Source: Thalia democratica (Eukaryota). From it: a stretch of DNA of 64,000 nt. Made by a program: the position numbers. Each line of letters begins with the position of its first letter. Within the stretch, counting starts at the first letter, position 1. This document shows, one piece after another, positions 33,001 to 54,000 of this stretch. The stretch covers positions 1-64,000 of the forward strand of contig CBDBBG010000121.1 of assembly GCA_965202585.1 (NCBI GenBank), in the 5' to 3' direction.

Positions 33001-36000
33001 TCCAACCAAACAGGCCGACCAAGGTGAGAGAGTGCGGGTGCGAGTGCTTGTGCGACGAGGGTTGGGGCAGGATCGACTGCAGCTGCAGCATGTCGCGGCT
33101 CACGTGCACCTCTCCCGCGGGGGCCATCTGCAGCGGGAAGGGCGTCTGCAAGTGCGGGACCTGCAAGTGCGAGACCGGGTACACCGGGCCCTACTGTACC
33201 GAGTGCATAGAAGGACCTAACAATGTTAGTTGCTTGCAAATATTGTGAATATGTTTGGTTTTTAAATCGTTGTGTTTTAAGAAGTCAATAAAATATTAAT
33301 TTTGGCTGAACTTTTTTTTTTGTTCTTTTGTTTTGACTGTTTACAAGTTAATTTGAAAATAAAGGTGTTTGATTATATGTATAACAAATGAAAATAACAT
33401 TTAAAAACTTTATCTGCAACTTTTTAATGAATTGTAGATTTAAGCAAATGAAAATTTTACAACTTTTGTTTATTTTAATAACAAAATAAAAACTTTAACT
33501 GGCATCTAAAATATTTTAAGTTAAGTTACAAAAATTTATAAACTGGAATAGAACTCTTTAAACAAAGTTTAGACATAAAAAAATGTGTTTGTAGAGAACT
33601 TTTACAAAAAGTGTATCTAATCTATATATTCATACTCAAACGACAATATAATACAAACTGAAAAATATAAAGTGGTACAAAAGTTTTACAAAACCTAAGT
33701 TTTGTTTCACTTTAACCCAACTATGCTTTACACAGGAATGTCCAAGCTGTGACAAGTTTGAGAACTGCGTCAAATGCACCATGCACGGTACCGGACCTCT
33801 GCGAGAAAGCTGCGCGGAATCGTGCCCTCATCCCATACAAGCAGCAGATGTTTACTCACTCGACGACGGTTGGTCTGCAGAATAATTACTCATGCGTGCA
33901 ATAATCTATTTGAACTTGAAAGTTTACTTTGAACAAAAATGTGAACAAAAAGTTTTTTAACAACTAGCTAAACCAATTTTTTTTTATTTCAATTGAGTTA
34001 CCCAACAACGCATAAAACTTTAAACCAATATATAAACATATATTTTTTTAAACTAATATTTTGACATTGAATTTTGTAGAAGTACTTGACCGTGTGAAGA
34101 ATAATTAACTTCTTTTACGCTTTAGCATTCAATGAAATAAAATATCACCCGGAAATAAGGCACACGTTAACGAAGTGTAAAATTTATTATCAATTTGCAG
34201 AGGAAGCAGATAAAAGGGGTATGACGCTGTGCAGTAAAACTGACCCGCTTGACGACTGTGCTTTTTACTACGAGTTTGCCACCATCGGAGATGACGAGTA
34301 CACTATCATTGCTGAGAAAAATAAACGTTTGTATTATATGTATTTGGTTCTGTTTAGATTTGTTCAGTTTTGTAAATAATCGCATATACTAAAACAATTT
34401 TTGATAAAAGTGTTTTGACGTTAGAAATATGTTATAAACAGTAAAAAATAAAAAATTGTTTGTAAAGTTTTACGTGAAAAAGAATTCTTTTTGAAATGAA
34501 ACTTTTGTATTGTTTCGTTGTTTTTAAGACACGAAAAACTTAATAACAGATTAATTGAACTTTTGTTTAAATTGTAAACTTTAACGTTTTTACATTGCTT
34601 GACACAAAACCGATTTTTTTTTTATAAAAGCAATAAAATAAAGTTAACTCTAAAGTCCTTTTCTATTTAAACTAAAAATCTATTCAACAGTAATGTAAAC
34701 AAAACAAACCATTTTAAGACTTTGGAAATTTAAAGTTAAAATTTATTTAGATTAATTATTCTACTCTCTACTAAACATTCTTTTTTTTTTCGTCAAAATT
34801 TCATTTGAGCAATGTAGTTGTCAATAAACCAAGTAACTTACAAACAAAACATTCCCTTCAGGTTGCAGGAAATCATACTCCTTGTTGATAATCCTGTGGT
34901 GCGTCCTTCTCTTCCTCCTCATCGGGTTGATCCTCCTCTGCTGCTGGAGGTGCTGCGTGTACGTCATAGACAAGGAAAAGGAGAAAACGTTTTTGAAGGA
35001 GAACATTCCATTACCGACACTCATACCCCTCGTTCCTACTATTGGCGCAGGTTTATTTTTATTTATACAAATTTTAAATAAAAGCTTAACTAGTTAAAAA
35101 ATTTGTTTTAAATTTTTTCGGACATATTTAAAAAACCTTTTTCTTTTTTTTTTTAATGAACAACCACATTATTTTATTTACTACGTAAATAGTAATGTTT
35201 GAAATGTTGAATAGTAATGTTTGAAAAAGTCTTTTTAAATGTTATTTGTAAATATCTAGGAAGCGTGATTGAGTTCATCAAAGCCAAGTACCTGATGAGA
35301 AAGAGCGACAAGGTGGCAATCATCCCTGTAAGAAGAAGTTTTACTCGCGGGGAAACCCGGCTCAACTACCGCACTTACAAAGGTTTGGCGGGAAGTTGTA
35401 ATAACTTATTAATTTTTCAATATGTAAGCTAAAATCTAACTTTTACTAATAAGTAACTTATTACACTAGTTGTTTTGAATATTACCGGTTCATTTATCTT
35501 TAAATGTTTTATTGTTAACGATGTTTCAGTTGTTGTTGAGCTGATTATACTTTTGTTAACCTTTGCACTAGATATACATTTTTTTAATTTTACACTTATC
35601 AACATCGTTGAACATTAGTGCATTGGTATTGCTTTAAGTTTGTATTAATCAATTTCATCACAGGTTCTGCTGAAGACAACGATTTTGAAGTTTTGAGTCA
35701 AGGTGAGGAAGGAACCATGATCAGAAAACGAATCATGTCAAGAGAAAGGTTATTTGCTTTAAATGAAAGTATAAACTGTTTTCTTGTTTAATGCTGTATA
35801 GTTTTTAAATTCTAACTGTTAGACTAACAGTACGGAAAATAAGAATATGATAAAACCGAAAAAAAACTATTAGTTGATTCTATTATCATGATGCAATGAA
35901 ATTTTATCACCGTCTTAAAAAGGAGTGAAAAGATCTAACAAGGTTCCTATATTAAAAATTAATCATAACTAAAATTTATCAGTGCAAGCCAACAAGAGTC

Positions 36001-51000: not shown

Positions 51001-54000
51001 TTTGTCAACTGTTTAGTAGAACGACTAGTATCACTTGTCAAATATTTTTTTCCAAATAATCTACAACTATCGATAATAAATAATTTACAAAATACTAAAC
51101 TATTAAATCGTGTATTTTAGAATTGTTATTACCTGTCAAGCAGTTTCGTCGTATAAAATAGCTAATTATTGAATAACCTAAACACAGCTCGCGGTGAACT
51201 TTCGTTCGAGGCGGACAACGCCAGTTTCAACCAATCAGACGGAAGCATCACCCTTCCAGTCCACCGCAGCAAGGACCAGAGCGGCATAGTGACGGCGTTC
51301 TGGCAGGCGAGGGGAATGCCCGGTAAACCGAGGTGCAGATACGAGGGAATGAACGGTACCGTTGTCTTCAATGATGGGGAAAGTGTTAAAGGTGATTGTT
51401 TTAATTGATGCGTACAAAAACGTTTTTATTATTATGAACGGTGAGGTGGTGTTTAATAATGGTGAAAGTTTGTAAAGTGATTGTTAATTTTGTTTTTTTT
51501 TATCTGGAGAAATATTCACAACTTTCATTGATAGTTAGTTATACTAAGAACATCAATGTTATTCAAACTGTAAAATGGTTCAGAAAAACAACATTATAAA
51601 AAACTTAATGACTTCTTTAATGGCTGAATTTAAAAATAGTCCGTTGTGGTTTAATTCTATTAATAAACTAATTTGTAAACATTTTCAATATTAACAGATA
51701 TAACAATCAAGTTGGTGCCACAAGTTCAATCAGTGACTACCGACCACGTGGTACTCGAAATTGATCCACCTAGTGGTAGAGCCTTGTTAGGGGAATACCC
51801 TGATTGCTCCGTAGTAATCAACAACGACGTTTGTGAGTAAAAAACAGCTTTTGTTGAACTTAGATAGAAAAAAAGTTCTAACTTATAAAACACAAGGCTA
51901 CTCAAGAATTTTTATAGAAAAAAGAATAATGATCAATAACAGAAAACTTGTTTTGTTACGTAATATATAGATGTTTTTTATAGTGTTTTACTTTAAAACT
52001 CGTTTTTTTATCACTTGTTAAATAATTTCAATGGTGTAAAATGTTATAAAGTAAACAAATTATCTTGAATGTAACATTTATTAAATATTTTTTAAAGTTT
52101 AAACATTTTAAACTTCAGTCCCAGGAAACTTCAGTTTGGAGCACAGTGACTACAAGTTCCAACAGAGCGAGGGTAAAGGAATTGTTAAAGTTTTGAGAAC
52201 TGAAGGAAAACGCGGCAATGTTTCACTCTCTTGGAAGGTTTTGATTGTTTATCATTAAAACTACAAACTATCTCAAGTTTTGTGAGAGATCTTAAAAAAA
52301 ATTTTTTTTTAATAAATAGTCATGTTTCAAAAATTAACATTTTCTTGTTTTTAAACACATTAGTTTATAAAATAAGTAAATAAACAAAGTTGAAACAACA
52401 TTGAGCTGCTTTGTAAATTTTAAGGAAGTTGTACTAACATAGAACACTAAAAATAACTATTTTAGTTACAATGTTTCTCTATAAATTGGTTTAAACAAAA
52501 TTTAAAGTTACTTTTAACTTTTCAAAACTTTTGCAAATACTAATTTTCACATTAATTGTTTGCAATAAGTTATGATAAAAACATCCCATTCAGATCGTAC
52601 CAGCTTCAGATGCTGCTTCATTCTCCACTATGATTGGACAAAACGGAACAATTGAGTTTGAAGACGAACAAAGCTTCGGTGAAATTGAAATAAAATTCCC
52701 TGAAGACACAGTCGAGGAACAAGAAGAGTTAGTTTATTTTGTTTTAATAGACTATTTTTTGACATTTAAACTTTGTAAAGCAAGTATATTTAGAGTGATA
52801 CTTTTGTAATACATCACTTGCTTAGCTTTTTTCATCTAGACTATATGTTTAATAAGAAAAAGAGTTACAAGTGGCGCTGTTGTATTATTCTGGATGATTA
52901 TGACAATTAATTACTTATCATTACTATAACAAAGTGTTGTATTAGATTTTGACAAAGTGTTTCAATCAACAGAGTGATGATAATGCTTCTGCCACCCGAC
53001 GGAAGAGCTGACCTTTTGGACCCATACAAATCACATTTACTGGTGGACAACGACCTCCAGTGTTCAATCAATTTCACATCTGATGTTTATAACATTCGTG
53101 GAGATGTGGACAGCTTTTTGTTGCCGCTTGTGAGGGACGGACCCAAGTACAGACCCATCACCGTCGCGTATAAAACTATAGGTGATTAAGTTTATTGTAA
53201 AGACCATTTAAAATTGTAAAAATTTTATAATAAGTCATGTTTTTATTACTTTATTGCATTGAACTAACTAAGGTATTAATATTATTTTGTAACGGCACAA
53301 AACCTGAGATTCTTAATTACAATTGTTTTTAAATTAAAATTTAACTTAATTATCATTTTTACATTGTTTAAAACTATTTATTCAAAACCGTACTTACCAT
53401 AAAACTTTTAACAAAAGTAAATCACCACACAATATCACTATAATCAAAAACAGACGGAACAGCTATTGATTGCAAGAATTTCATCGGAGGTGACGGAGAG
53501 GTCGAGTTCGGACCTGGTGAGGTGAAAAAGGATATTTTGCTGCCTGTTATGAACGACAACCAGGGAGGTGTACTCACATTCAGCTGTCAATTGACCAACG
53601 TGCAGAGCGGAGGTCCCGGAAAGATCGGTGTCATCGGGGACTGCACTGTCAATATTGAGAACATTCCTGGTCAGTTCTAATAAAATGTTTTAAAATAACG
53701 AGATATTGATAGTTTGCGCGTTAACCAGTTTTTTTGTCATTCATACTCAATTGACGAATTTTTACTTTCAAACGACAAAAATTGTGATGTGAATTTATTC
53801 CTTTAACTGTTTAAAAGCTTTCTTATTTGATTACTTTTATCTACAAAAAGTATCTGAAAACTACAAAACAAAAACATAGGCTGAATTGTTTCACATTTAA
53901 CCGTAATTTACTGTCTTTACAATATCAATATAAAAGTATCCTTCCAAATATCTAATATTTTTATTTTAACAGCTGCCGGTCGCGTGGATATGTCATCTCC

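What the first reader, a model, noticed from the sequence alone, without database searches (positions are those of the whole stretch)
35260..53669. Five-domain super-repeat in the proximal Calx-beta array
Seen: a Pro-rich linker precedes domains 1, 6 and 11 (IPLPTLIPLVPT; VPVIPVGLAPT; EAAPMPQS), and those same three domains carry large inserts. Domains 2, 7 and 12 share D(H/A)G(I/T)(I/L/V)GF..DG.(V/I)..W, and 2 and 7 both start with a 194-nt exon ending F..(G/N)Q. Domains 4 and 9 share EPG.F.FSKP..R..G(S/T)DG....PW. Domains 3 and 8 share VQF.K..YP..LRT. Inference: the tail grew by ancient block duplication of a 5-domain cassette, which suggests a repeating binding register along the rod.
Basis: partly seen in the sequence, partly recalled or inferred. 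Interest (0 to 1): 0.65.

Follow-up and report, generated by a model that had tools for sequence, protein, structure and literature searches.

The report
Five-domain repeat in integrin tail
A giant integrin-like adhesion gene carries a long chain of Calx-beta domains, and the first twelve or so repeat in blocks of five, which points to an old block duplication of the kind seen in other giant modular proteins.

Summary
On the + strand, an integrin-beta ectodomain gene (23.7-34 kb) runs through a transmembrane exon into at least 25 Calx-beta domains (35,262-63,777). The finding covers D1-D15.

- **Periodicity:** Exon-by-exon all-against-all comparison shows period 5 in D1-D15. No other period from 2 to 7 shows up. 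The signal appears independently in the N-halves and the C-halves, with 0 of 10,000 shuffles reaching the summed score. It survives length normalisation and removal of any one cassette position.
- **Solid groups:** D1/D11, D2/D7/D12, D4/D9 and D5/D10.
- **Weak members:** D6 and D3/D8 rest mainly on one short N-terminal strand motif.
- **D13-D15:** These resemble distal domains D19-D21 more than D3-5 or D8-10.
- **Introns:** D2 and D7 share a 194-nt exon and a phase-0 intron found in no other domain. D3/D8 and D5/D10 also share intron position and phase. The third unit shares none.
- **Linkers:** The third "Pro-rich linker" depends on an unverified 42-nt micro-exon.

My reading is two full A-B-C-D-E cassettes made by block duplication through phase-1 introns, then a partial third copy. 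The "binding register" idea is untested. The repeat itself is ordinary. The context is less so: an integrin beta with a Calx-beta-only cytoplasmic tail in an organism that does not look vertebrate.

The parts
23765..34376 (+). Integrin-beta ectodomain exons, upstream context: PSI, beta-I/VWA with the MIDAS string DLSFS, I-EGF/EGF, and beta-tail.
   Evidence: Pfam on single ORFs: Integrin_beta on 5 ORFs (25.7-51 bits, cut-off 24.8), PSI_integrin 23.6 bits, EGF_2 30.2 bits, Integrin_B_tail 27.3 bits. One search adds I-EGF_1 (32.4 bits) and one more Integrin_beta piece. A beta-I exon hits 59 PDB integrin beta chains, the best being beta-1 at 5.5e-8. DLSFS was read.
34862..35050 (+). Transmembrane exon. 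It holds a 22-residue hydrophobic helix, a Cys-rich basic juxtamembrane stretch and a Pro-rich linker (IPLPTLIPLVPT). Its phase-1 donor matches the phase-1 acceptor of D1, 209 nt downstream.
   Evidence: A relative's protein P0153 (66% identical) keeps the helix and a Pro-rich linker, and its similarity stops at the predicted donor. The join to D1 is inferred from splice sites. No transcript was seen.
35260..42477 (+). Cassette 1 (A-B-C-D-E): D1 35260-36534, with an acidic insert in exons 35664-35748 and 35983-36183; D2 36752-37760; D3 37761-38713; D4 39788-40832; D5 41212-42477.
   Evidence: Local Calx-beta HMM, Pfam Calx-beta on single exons, and the exon model.
44224..48846 (+). Cassette 2 (A-B-C-D-E): Pro-rich linker plus D6 44224-45399 (insert within 44708-44911); D7 45631-46266; D8 46653-47364; D9 47641-47964 (single exon); D10 48265-48846.
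   Evidence: Introns 46819|47166 and 47364|47641 are confirmed by the spliced fragment P0001 from a relative. The D9 model has pLDDT 87.3 and a Calx-beta fold.
48906..48947 (+). Unverified.
   Evidence: The acceptor and donor are good, but the upstream intron would be 59 nt, against 171 nt or more for 51 of 53 modelled introns. Skipping the micro-exon (48846 to 49177) also keeps the frame.
49177..53669 (+). Third unit: D11 49177-49892 (A type, insert within the first exon); D12 50116-50628 (B type); D13 51188-51832; D14 52119-about 53045; D15 about 53046-53669 (E type). D13-15 resemble distal D19-21 more than D3-5 or D8-10.
36752..36945 (+). 194-nt first exon of D2. Its phase-0 donor follows ...FADGQ, at HMM column 66/67.
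45631..45824 (+). 194-nt first exon of D7. Its phase-0 donor follows ...FLHNQ, at the same column and phase as in D2. No other of the 25 domains has this intron.
53973..63777 (+). Distal array D16-D25, outside the finding, used as comparison set. It has period 4 (D17/21/25, D18/22, D20/24). The gene runs off the window.

Best explanation
**Shown.** The region encodes the first 15 of at least 25 Calx-beta domains. In the gene model they follow the transmembrane helix of an integrin-beta-type subunit, so they would form a giant cytoplasmic tail. D1-5 and D6-10 are two copies of a five-domain, 12-13 exon cassette of types A-B-C-D-E. D11-D12 (A-B) begin a third copy. The rest of the third unit (D13-15) is either far more diverged or was assembled from the kind of unit that makes up the distal array.

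**Inferred, origin.** The cassette was copied by tandem block duplication. Unequal recombination within the phase-1 introns that separate almost all domains would keep the reading frame.

**Inferred, function.**
- Domains joined by linkers of 7 residues or fewer form stiff five-domain segments.
- The segments are separated by Pro-rich hinges.
- Each hinge is followed by an A-type domain carrying an acidic, Ser/Thr-rich, probably disordered loop.
- The tail would therefore present the same surfaces at a fixed spacing to cytoskeletal or signalling partners. This is loosely the way integrin beta-4 uses its long tail, and the way titin super-repeats match a periodic partner.
For: **Gene context.** Pfam on single exons, the TM exon and splice phases, and conservation in relative P0153 ending at the predicted donor.

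**Domain census.** 25 domains on the + strand. The best minus-strand control hit has i-E 0.65.

**Period 5 in D1-15.**
- Sum of N and C scores: 0/5000 and 0/10000.
- N and C halves separately: 0/10000 and 5/10000.
- Leaving out any one cassette position: at most 3/5000.
- Length-normalised fixed columns: 0/5000.
- Mean score by offset: k=5 gives 116 and k=10 gives 106, against 55-88 for the other offsets.
- The order of D6-10 against D1-5 is the best of 120.

**Partner ranks among 24.**
- D2/7/12: all ranks 1-2.
- D4 and D9: rank 1 each way.
- D1 and D11: rank 1 each way.
- D5 to D10 rank 1; D10 to D5 rank 2.

**Trees.** D4+D9 97/91 (N) and 86/81 (C). D2+D7 90/72 (C). D1+D11 86/52 (C). The cassette-position label needs 7 changes on the N tree (that few or fewer in 17/2000 shuffles) and 6 on the C tree (1/2000).

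**Introns.**
- D2/D7 have identical 194-nt exons and a phase-0 intron unique among the 25 domains.
- D3/D8 share phase 0 at column ~57.
- D5/D10 share phase 1 at columns ~55-57.
- 19 of 24 domain borders carry phase-1 introns.

**Age.** No DNA repeat links the cassettes. In-register identity is 30-44%, against 84% for an ortholog fragment.

**Third unit mosaic.** D13-15 against D19-21 score 315, against 214 and 221 for the in-register triplets.

**Fold.** The D9 model matches NCX CBD1/2 and the integrin beta-4 Calx-beta domain, TM 0.77-0.82.

**Segmentation.** Long linkers occur only at TM|D1, D5|D6 and D17|D18, and at D10|D11 if the micro-exon is real.
Against: - **D3/D8 are not grouped.** Neither half-domain tree joins them. 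D3 ranks D8 only 6th, or 10th with fixed columns. Their link rests on a 9-residue strand motif plus one shared intron.
- **D6 is weak.** It joins D1/D11 only when its first small exon is counted. With it the ranks are 1-2. Without it they are 9 and 7. In the N tree D6 sits with D13 at 93/90, with only 40% of its columns filled.
- **D12 is not placed with D2/D7** by either tree.
- **Odd N-tree joins.** D8+D15 (99/88) and D3+D10 (78/83) go against the register.
- **Intron mismatches.** D4 has an intron that D9 lacks. The inserts of D1, D6 and D11 are bounded by introns in three different phases. The third unit shares no intron with cassettes 1-2.
- **Short alignments.** All trees rest on 55-58 columns because exons were not joined, so support is low throughout.
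- **No transcript** shows the TM exon spliced to D1.
- **The functional part** (rod, hinges, periodic binding) has no direct evidence.
- **Ca2+ binding is doubtful.** The acidic E-F-loop cluster expected of Ca2+-binding Calx-beta domains is clear only in some types (read from the alignment).
Confidence: 0.6

Rival explanations
1. Three complete copies of one five-domain cassette exist. The third (D11-15) is simply the oldest or fastest-evolving copy.
For: - The observed order of D11-15 against cassettes 1-2 is the best of 120 orders.
- D15 lies with D5 and D10 in the E-type clade of the C-half tree, 96/93.
- D14 lies in the same N-half superclade as D4/D9, 88/83.
- AU tests do not reject D4/9/14 (p 0.37, 0.28) or D5/10/15 (p 0.24, 0.20).
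Against: - D13's in-register partners rank 14th and 23rd of 24. D14 ranks D4 17th.
- The group {D3, D8, D13} is rejected in the N-half (p-AU 0.02).
- D13-15 score 315 against D19-21, but 214 and 221 against D3-5 and D8-10.
- D14 shares a 40-nt DNA repeat with D18 and D20, and not with D4 or D9.
- The E-type clade also holds D17, D21 and D25, so D15's membership does not tie it to cassette position 5.
- No intron position is shared with cassettes 1-2.
Confidence: 0.3
2. There was no block duplication. The domains arose one at a time, and the period-5 likeness reflects selection for the same partner-binding surfaces at regular spacing (convergence).
For: Nothing specific. It cannot be excluded for the weakest positions (D3/D8, D6), where the likeness rests on one short strand motif.
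Against: - The likeness is spread over both halves of the domains.
- It comes with shared exon length (194 nt) and shared intron position and phase at three cassette positions. Convergence on protein surfaces would not produce that.
Confidence: 0.04
3. The Calx-beta array is not the integrin's tail. It belongs to a separate gene starting near 35.2 kb (there is an ATG at 35217 in the D1 frame), or the integrin ends by read-through of the TM exon at 35094. The repeat would then sit in another kind of protein.
For: - No transcript spanning the TM exon and D1 was found. The three word-index searches returned only fragments.
- The domain pair Calx-beta plus Integrin_B_tail was reported as absent from 10 invertebrate genomes (PMC11788884, passages of sections 2.2-2.5 and Table 1).
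Against: - The exons are on the same strand with only a 209-nt gap.
- The phase-1 donor of the gene's usual GTTT type matches D1's phase-1 acceptor.
- Similarity to relative P0153 runs through the Pro-rich linker and stops at the predicted donor.
- There is no room for a promoter, and the alternative start has no convincing signal peptide (read).
Confidence: 0.12
4. Assembly artefact: the repeat units are collapsed or duplicated copies created by mis-assembly.
For: None.
Against: - The copies are only 30-44% identical in protein.
- They share no DNA repeat of 40 nt or more.
- Introns differ in length and sequence.
- The window holds no N.
Confidence: 0.01

Closest known systems
Vertebrate integrin beta-4 (ITGB4)
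   Same: - It is an integrin beta ectodomain and single TM helix followed by an unusually long cytoplasmic tail that contains a Calx-beta domain.
- The D9 model superposes on the beta-4 Calx-beta crystal structures (3H6A, 3FQ4, 3FSO) with TM 0.77-0.78 and 24-25% identity.
- No NPx(Y/F) motif occurs in the 2,980 tail residues seen.
- The tail presumably links to the cytoskeleton by other means.
   Different: - As I recall, and as PMC4452579 and PMC4388270 describe in their abstracts, beta-4 has one Calx-beta domain followed by two pairs of FnIII domains and a connecting segment.
- Here there are at least 25 Calx-beta domains. No fn3 hit occurs among the 133 + strand ORFs scanned, but the gene leaves the window.
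- The beta-I exon's best PDB hits are beta-1, beta-6 and beta-8. No beta-4 chain is among the 59 hits.
- Orthology is not shown. The fusion may be independent.
Super-repeats of giant modular proteins (titin A-band 7- and 11-domain Ig/Fn3 super-repeats; recalled)
   Same: - Block duplication of a multi-domain cassette.
- In-register domains are more alike than neighbours.
- Domain-border introns share one phase, which allows frame-preserving duplication.
   Different: - The domain family differs (Calx-beta, not Ig/Fn3).
- There are only about 2.4 units, followed by a change to a four-domain period.
- No periodic partner is known.
Extracellular Calx-beta arrays: ADGRV1/VLGR1, FRAS1/FREM, sea-urchin ECM3, sponge aggregation factor MAFp4
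   Same: Long tandem runs of Calx-beta domains. The list of such proteins comes from passages of PMC11670116.
   Different: - Those arrays are extracellular. This one follows a TM helix of a type I receptor, so it is predicted to be cytoplasmic.
- FRAS/FREM proteins carry a run of about five Calx-beta domains (recalled). Whether that run is related to this cassette was not tested.
Na+/Ca2+ exchanger CBD1-CBD2 (NCX1, Drosophila CALX)
   Same: - Cytoplasmic Calx-beta domains joined head to tail by a very short linker.
- They are the best structural matches of D9: 2QVK, 2DPK, 3EAD and 3GIN, TM 0.78-0.82.
- D9's only PDB sequence hit is NCX1 CBD12 (3US9, E 0.0013).
   Different: - NCX has two domains acting as a Ca2+ sensor inside a transporter loop.
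- Here there is a rod of 25 or more domains. The acidic Ca2+-site residues are kept in only some domain types (alignment, read by eye).

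Membership tests
Calx-beta domain (Pfam PF03160) | Match to the family HMM at or above the gathering score (27 bits). | tested here: met
   The test used single ORFs, which are half-domains. The pieces of D2 (42.9 bits), D7 (50.4), D8 (32.6), D12 (31.4), D5 (30.7) and D17 (27.1) pass. 17 of the 133 ORFs hit at E<=0.01. A local HMM ties in all 25 domains.
Calx-beta domain (Pfam PF03160) | Beta-sandwich fold superposable on solved Calx-beta domains. | tested here: met
   The D9 single-exon model has pLDDT 87.3. Its top 32 Foldseek ranks are all NCX/CALX CBD or integrin beta-4 Calx-beta structures, TM 0.72-0.82. 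Only D9 was folded.
Calx-beta domain (Pfam PF03160) | Acidic Ca2+-coordinating cluster in the E-F loop and at the C-terminal end (as in NCX CBD1; recalled). | tested here: inconclusive
   I read this by eye from the alignment. D2, D7, D12, D3, D14 and D18 have acid-rich loops. The E-type domains carry ND(P/N).G instead. No binding prediction was run.
Integrin beta subunit | Beta-I (VWA) domain with the MIDAS DxSxS motif, flanked by PSI, I-EGF and beta-tail, then one TM helix. | tested here: met
   Integrin_beta hits 5 ORFs above the cut-off, with PSI, EGF and beta-tail in the right order. DLSFS was read. The PDB hits are integrin beta chains only, 59 of 59. The TM helix was read.
Integrin beta subunit | Short cytoplasmic tail with NPxY/NxxY talin- and kindlin-binding motifs. 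| tested here: not met
   No NPx(Y/F) occurs in any of the 54 modelled exons. The tail is at least 2,980 residues of Calx-beta domains.
Integrin beta-4 orthologue | Calx-beta domain in the cytoplasmic tail. | tested here: met
   This holds in the gene model only. The TM exon's phase-1 donor leads to the D1 acceptor 209 nt downstream. No transcript evidence was found.
Integrin beta-4 orthologue | Two pairs of FnIII domains and a connecting segment after the Calx-beta domain. | tested here: not met
   No fn3 family hit occurs among the 133 + strand ORFs of 52 aa or more. The gene continues beyond base 64000, so a distal FnIII region cannot be excluded.
Integrin beta-4 orthologue | Ectodomain groups with beta-4 in a tree of integrin beta chains. 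| not tested
   A tree would need the joined ectodomain, which was left out. The single beta-I exon is closest to beta-1 in the PDB.
Block-duplicated super-repeat | In-register domains are more alike than out-of-register ones, at one period only. | tested here: met
   See, with the counts given under the observation check.
Block-duplicated super-repeat | In-register domains are nearest relatives on a tree. | tested here: inconclusive
   D4+D9, D1+D11 and D2+D7 are grouped. D3/D8, D6 and D12 are not. AU tests reject none of the groups. The alignments have only 55-58 columns.
Block-duplicated super-repeat | Copies share exon-intron structure. | tested here: met
   Cassettes 1 and 2 share it at 3 of 5 positions (D2/D7, D3/D8, D5/D10). 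The third unit shares it at 0 of 5.
Block-duplicated super-repeat | The same cassette order in orthologous genes of other species. | not testable with these tools
   Only a 190-aa fragment (P0001, D8-D9 in the same order) and a TM-exon fragment (P0153) were found. No long ortholog was reachable.

The most novel reading that the evidence does not exclude
An organism that is almost certainly not a vertebrate encodes an integrin beta subunit whose cytoplasmic tail is a rod more than 100 nm long, made only of Calx-beta domains. The case against a vertebrate origin is 26-34% GC, introns of about 280 nt, and a divergent beta-I domain.

The rod would be built from hinge-separated five-domain and four-domain super-repeats, each starting or ending with a fixed domain type. 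This would be a previously undescribed kind of integrin-to-cytoskeleton connector.

It would also mean that the integrin-Calx-beta fusion, listed as a vertebrate innovation in PMC11788884, is older than vertebrates or arose twice.
Probability: 0.4. Interest if true: 0.7.

Novelty: new variant of a known kind. Interest (0 to 1): 0.5.

Why it matters
The super-repeat itself is an expected product of exon-block duplication in a giant modular gene. It mainly gives a clean worked example: both domain halves, exon length and intron phase agree.

It matters more for what it organises. If the gene model is right, this integrin has a tail of at least 2,980 residues, with stiff five-domain segments, Pro-rich hinges and recurring acidic loops. 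That predicts evenly spaced docking sites inside the cell and offers defined cassettes for expression and pull-down.

It also bears on where the beta-4-type integrin design (Calx-beta in the tail) came from. A 2024 survey counted that design as vertebrate-specific (PMC11788884, Table 1, seen as passages).

Tried and rejected
**Ortholog searches.**
- A word-index search with the D9 exon (longer proteins) gave 1 hit among 144 candidates, a 190-aa fragment.
- A search with a beta-I exon gave none of 5 candidates.
- A search with the TM exon gave 2 of 176 candidates. One is a short genomic ORF (P0152) and one is a beta-tail+TM fragment (P0153).
- No long ortholog could be reached, since candidates were capped at 2,000 aa.
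- The exhaustive representative search with D9 gave 1,075 proteins at E<=0.001. Of the best 150, 18 were scanned in Pfam. They are generic, mostly bacterial-type Calx-beta proteins. None of the 151 proteins stored at that point (P0001 plus the 150) matches the window's integrin exons.
- The Atlas look-up gave only generic Calx-beta clusters.

**Other negatives.**
- DNA repeats of 40 nt or more between cassettes: none, apart from one 40-nt family in D14/D18/D20.
- Literature: five full-text searches found no paper describing an integrin beta with a Calx-beta array. This is not proof that none exists, because subscription journals are not covered.

**Left out by instruction.**
Therefore no whole-domain or whole-protein search, tree or fold was run, except for the single-exon D9.
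- Genome contigs holds only bacteria and archaea and was not used.
- Supplementary tables of PMC11788884 were not seen.
- No complex prediction was run, since no partner is known.

**Rejected readings.** Assembly artefact and convergence; see the rival explanations.

Full report
**Context**

The window has 26-34% GC and no N. On the + strand, single-ORF Pfam scans found an integrin-beta ectodomain between 23.7 and 34 kb.
- PSI_integrin was found on one ORF.
- Integrin_beta was found on five ORFs above the cut-off. One more piece (24.3 bits, just under the 24.8 cut-off) was found.
- I-EGF and EGF were found.
- Integrin_B_tail was found.

The beta-I exon carries the MIDAS string DLSFS. It matches only integrin beta chains in the PDB, 59 of 59 hits, the best being beta-1 at 5.5e-8.

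ORF 34837-35094 encodes a 22-residue hydrophobic helix, a Cys-rich basic stretch and the Pro-rich string IPLPTLIPLVPT. A phase-1 donor at 35050 matches the phase-1 acceptor of the first Calx-beta exon at 35260.

A protein of a relative (P0153, 66% identical) keeps the helix and a Pro-rich linker. It loses similarity exactly at that donor. So the Calx-beta array is most likely the cytoplasmic tail of this integrin. No transcript proves the join.

**How the work was done**

Whole-domain and whole-protein analyses were therefore left out. The only whole domain analysed as one piece is D9, which is a single exon. This keeps the trees short (55-58 columns) and their support low.

**Domain census and exon model**

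A profile grown from D9 found 25 Calx-beta domains, all on the + strand, from 35,262 to 63,777. The best minus-strand hit had i-E 0.65.

I chose splice sites by frame, GT/AG and profile continuity. This gave 54 exons and 53 introns. Two introns, 46819|47166 and 47364|47641, are confirmed by P0001. That is a spliced 190-aa fragment from a relative, 84% identical over D9.

Median intron length is 281 nt, and 51 of 53 introns are 171 nt or longer. The finding's coordinates are exactly the first D1 exon start and the last D15 exon end.

The D9 model (pLDDT 87.3) superposes on NCX CBD1/2 and on the integrin beta-4 Calx-beta domain, TM 0.77-0.82.

All quoted strings are present.
- **Linkers.** Those before D1 and D6 lie in exons that also encode the TM helix and the first strand of D6, so they are secure. 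The third (EAAPMPQS) needs a 42-nt micro-exon behind a 59-nt intron, which is an outlier in size. Skipping it keeps the frame too.
- **Inserts.** Large inserts occur only in D1, D6 and D11. They sit at the same loop and are acidic and Ser/Thr-rich.
- **194-nt exons.** The two 194-nt exons of D2 and D7 are real. They end in a phase-0 donor at the same profile column, and no other domain has an intron there.
- The D2/7/12 motif has three residues before W, not two.

**Is the period real?**

I compared N-half and C-half exon pieces all against all by local alignment.
- In D1-15, pairs at offset 5 or 10 score higher than the rest: N 0/10000 shuffles of domain order, C 5/10000, sum 0/10000. Periods 2, 3, 4, 6 and 7 show nothing.
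- Mean summed score is 116 at offset 5 and 106 at offset 10, against 55-88 at other offsets.
- Dropping any one cassette position leaves at most 3/5000.
- Shared exon lengths could inflate local scores. I therefore repeated the test with per-column BLOSUM62 on fixed, well-filled columns (41 N, 44 C): N 16/5000, C 5/5000, N+C 0/5000.
- The order of D6-10 is the best of 120 orders against D1-5.

**Which groups hold**

| Group | Evidence |
|---|---|
| D2/D7/D12 | Ranks 1-2 of 24 in all directions; D2+D7 90/72 in the C tree |
| D4/D9 | Rank 1 each way; 97/91 (N) and 86/81 (C) |
| D1/D11 | Rank 1 each way; 62/22 (N) and 86/52 (C) |
| D5/D10 | Ranks 1 and 2 |
| D6 with D1/D11 (weak) | Joins only when its first small exon is counted: ranks 1-2 with it, 9 and 7 without |
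| D3/D8 (weak) | Ranks 6 and 2 with D3's first small exon, 10 and 6 without; grouped by neither tree |

The trees also give joins that go against the register: D8+D15 at 99/88, D3+D10 at 78/83, and D6+D13 at 93/90.

**Intron map**

19 of 24 domain borders have phase-1 introns, 4 have none, and 1 is unclear. Intra-domain introns:

| Domain | Intron(s): phase, profile column |
|---|---|
| D1 | phase 1 ~44; phase 2 and phase 2 around the insert |
| D2 | phase 0, 66/67 |
| D3 | phase 1 ~17; phase 0 ~57 |
| D4 | phase 1 ~53 |
| D5 | phase 1 ~55 |
| D6 | phase 0 ~20; phase 0 ~60 |
| D7 | phase 0, 66/67 |
| D8 | phase 0 ~57 |
| D9 | none |
| D10 | phase 1 ~57 |
| D11 | phase 1 ~58 |
| D12 | phase 1 ~48 |
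| D13 | phase 1 ~69 |
| D14 | phase 0 ~42; phase 2 ~84 |
| D15 | phase 1 ~44 |

Cassettes 1 and 2 therefore share an intron at three of five positions. The third unit shares none.

**The third unit and the rest of the array**
- D13-15 taken in order score 315 against D19-21 and 253 against D23-25. They score 214 and 221 against D3-5 and D8-10.
- D13 and D19 are reciprocal best partners.
- D14 shares the only DNA repeat, 40 nt, with D18 and D20.
- D16-25 have period 4 (sum 1/5000, 5/5000). Identities are 42-51% for D20/24, D21/25 and D18/22.
- An E-type clade (D5, 10, 15, 17, 21, 25) has 96/93 support in the C tree. Each member is preceded by a domain of the D-type superclade of the N tree, 88/83.

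I read the array as A-B-C-D-E, A-B-C-D-E, A-B-x-D'-E, D-E, then two four-domain units.

**Age**

In-register identity is 30-44%. No DNA similarity remains between cassettes. The ortholog fragment P0001 matches D9 at 84%, while its next best match in the window is D4 at 51% over 39 residues. The duplication therefore long predates the split from that relative.

**Mechanism**

What is shown: period 5, shared exon structure, phase-1 borders, and the pattern of linkers and inserts.

What is inferred:
- The cassette was copied by unequal recombination within phase-1 introns.
- Short linkers (7 residues or fewer) make stiff segments.
- Long linkers make hinges. They occur at TM|D1, D5|D6 and D17|D18, and at D10|D11 if the micro-exon is real.
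- A-type domains expose recurring acidic loops.
- At roughly 4 nm per domain (recalled from CBD structures), a cassette would span about 20 nm and 25 domains more than 100 nm.
- The absence of NPx(Y/F) from the tail suggests coupling other than through talin.

Periodic partner binding is a hypothesis only.

**Comparison with what is known**

Integrin beta-4 is the one integrin known to have a cytoplasmic Calx-beta domain (passages of PMC11670116; abstracts of PMC4452579 and PMC4388270). It has one such domain plus FnIII domains, whereas no fn3 was found here.

PMC11788884 (passages of sections 2.1-2.5 and 4.3, and Table 1) lists the pair Calx-beta plus Integrin_B_tail among vertebrate-specific domain pairs. 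The pair was absent from 10 invertebrate genomes. Its supplementary tables were not seen.

Five literature searches found no description of an integrin with a Calx-beta array.

**Verdict**

The super-repeat is real and old, but it covers about 2.4 units rather than three. As a phenomenon it is ordinary. The protein it sits in is the more unusual thing.

Noticed in passing
window 53973-63777 (D16-D25): The distal array has a four-domain period: D17/21/25, D18/22 and D20/24. Identities of 42-51% are higher than in the proximal five-domain repeat. Intron positions are shared in D18/D22, D20/D24 and D21/D25.
   Followed up: partly
window D5, D10, D15, D17, D21, D25 (C-half exons 42295-42477, 48679-48846, 53454-53669, 55543-55679, 59221-59388, 63623-63800): One domain type (E) recurs at the end of every unit, mostly with ND(P/N).G in place of the acidic loop. 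It forms a 96/93 clade. In 6 of 6 cases it is preceded by a member of the D-type superclade. A D-E pair may be the oldest unit of the array. This reading is post hoc.
   Followed up: partly
window 56977-57031 (D18|D19 border): The reading frame shifts by one base with no room for a normal intron. The only GT..AG pairs give introns of 55 nt or less, and they would remove the last strand of D18 and the first strand of D19. The paralogous D22|D23 border is continuous. This could be an assembly indel, a real frameshift, or an odd short intron.
   Followed up: partly
window 34862-63800 (53 modelled donors): The donor sites are unusual. T is the commonest base at intron position +3 (27 of 53). GTTTGT and GTTTGA together (12 of 53) outnumber GTGAGT (5 of 53). 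This came out even though my scoring favoured GT(A/G)AGT. Acceptors are mostly ACAG.
   Followed up: no
window 4070-7919, minus strand: A separate gene for a membrane dipeptidase (Peptidase_M19) lies here. Five ORFs match, in profile order, with up to 79 bits. About 15 kb of apparently gene-poor sequence lies between it and the integrin gene.
   Followed up: no
window 52160-52199, 56112-56151, 57983-58022: This is the only DNA-level direct repeat in the tail: 40 nt, with 68-75% identity to the reference copy. It encodes the (Q/K)QS(E/D)G...(V/L)LR strand of D14, D18 and D20.
   Followed up: partly
window 34862-35050: The juxtamembrane segment is Cys-rich (CCWRCC). It is followed by an acidic/basic stretch with one Asp, at the place where integrin beta tails have their membrane-proximal Asp. 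A Cys-rich palmitoylated stretch is something I recall for beta-4. This was not tested.
   Followed up: no
window 42478-44223 and 59389-60935: The two longest introns (1,746 and 1,547 nt) lie at unit borders, D5|D6 and D21|D22. The local Calx-beta profile finds nothing in them at E<50. I did not check them for transposons or lost exons.
   Followed up: no
whole gene, 23.7-64 kb: The integrin beta and Calx-beta domains sit in one gene model, in a genome that does not look vertebrate. PMC11788884 lists this domain pair as vertebrate-specific.
   Followed up: partly
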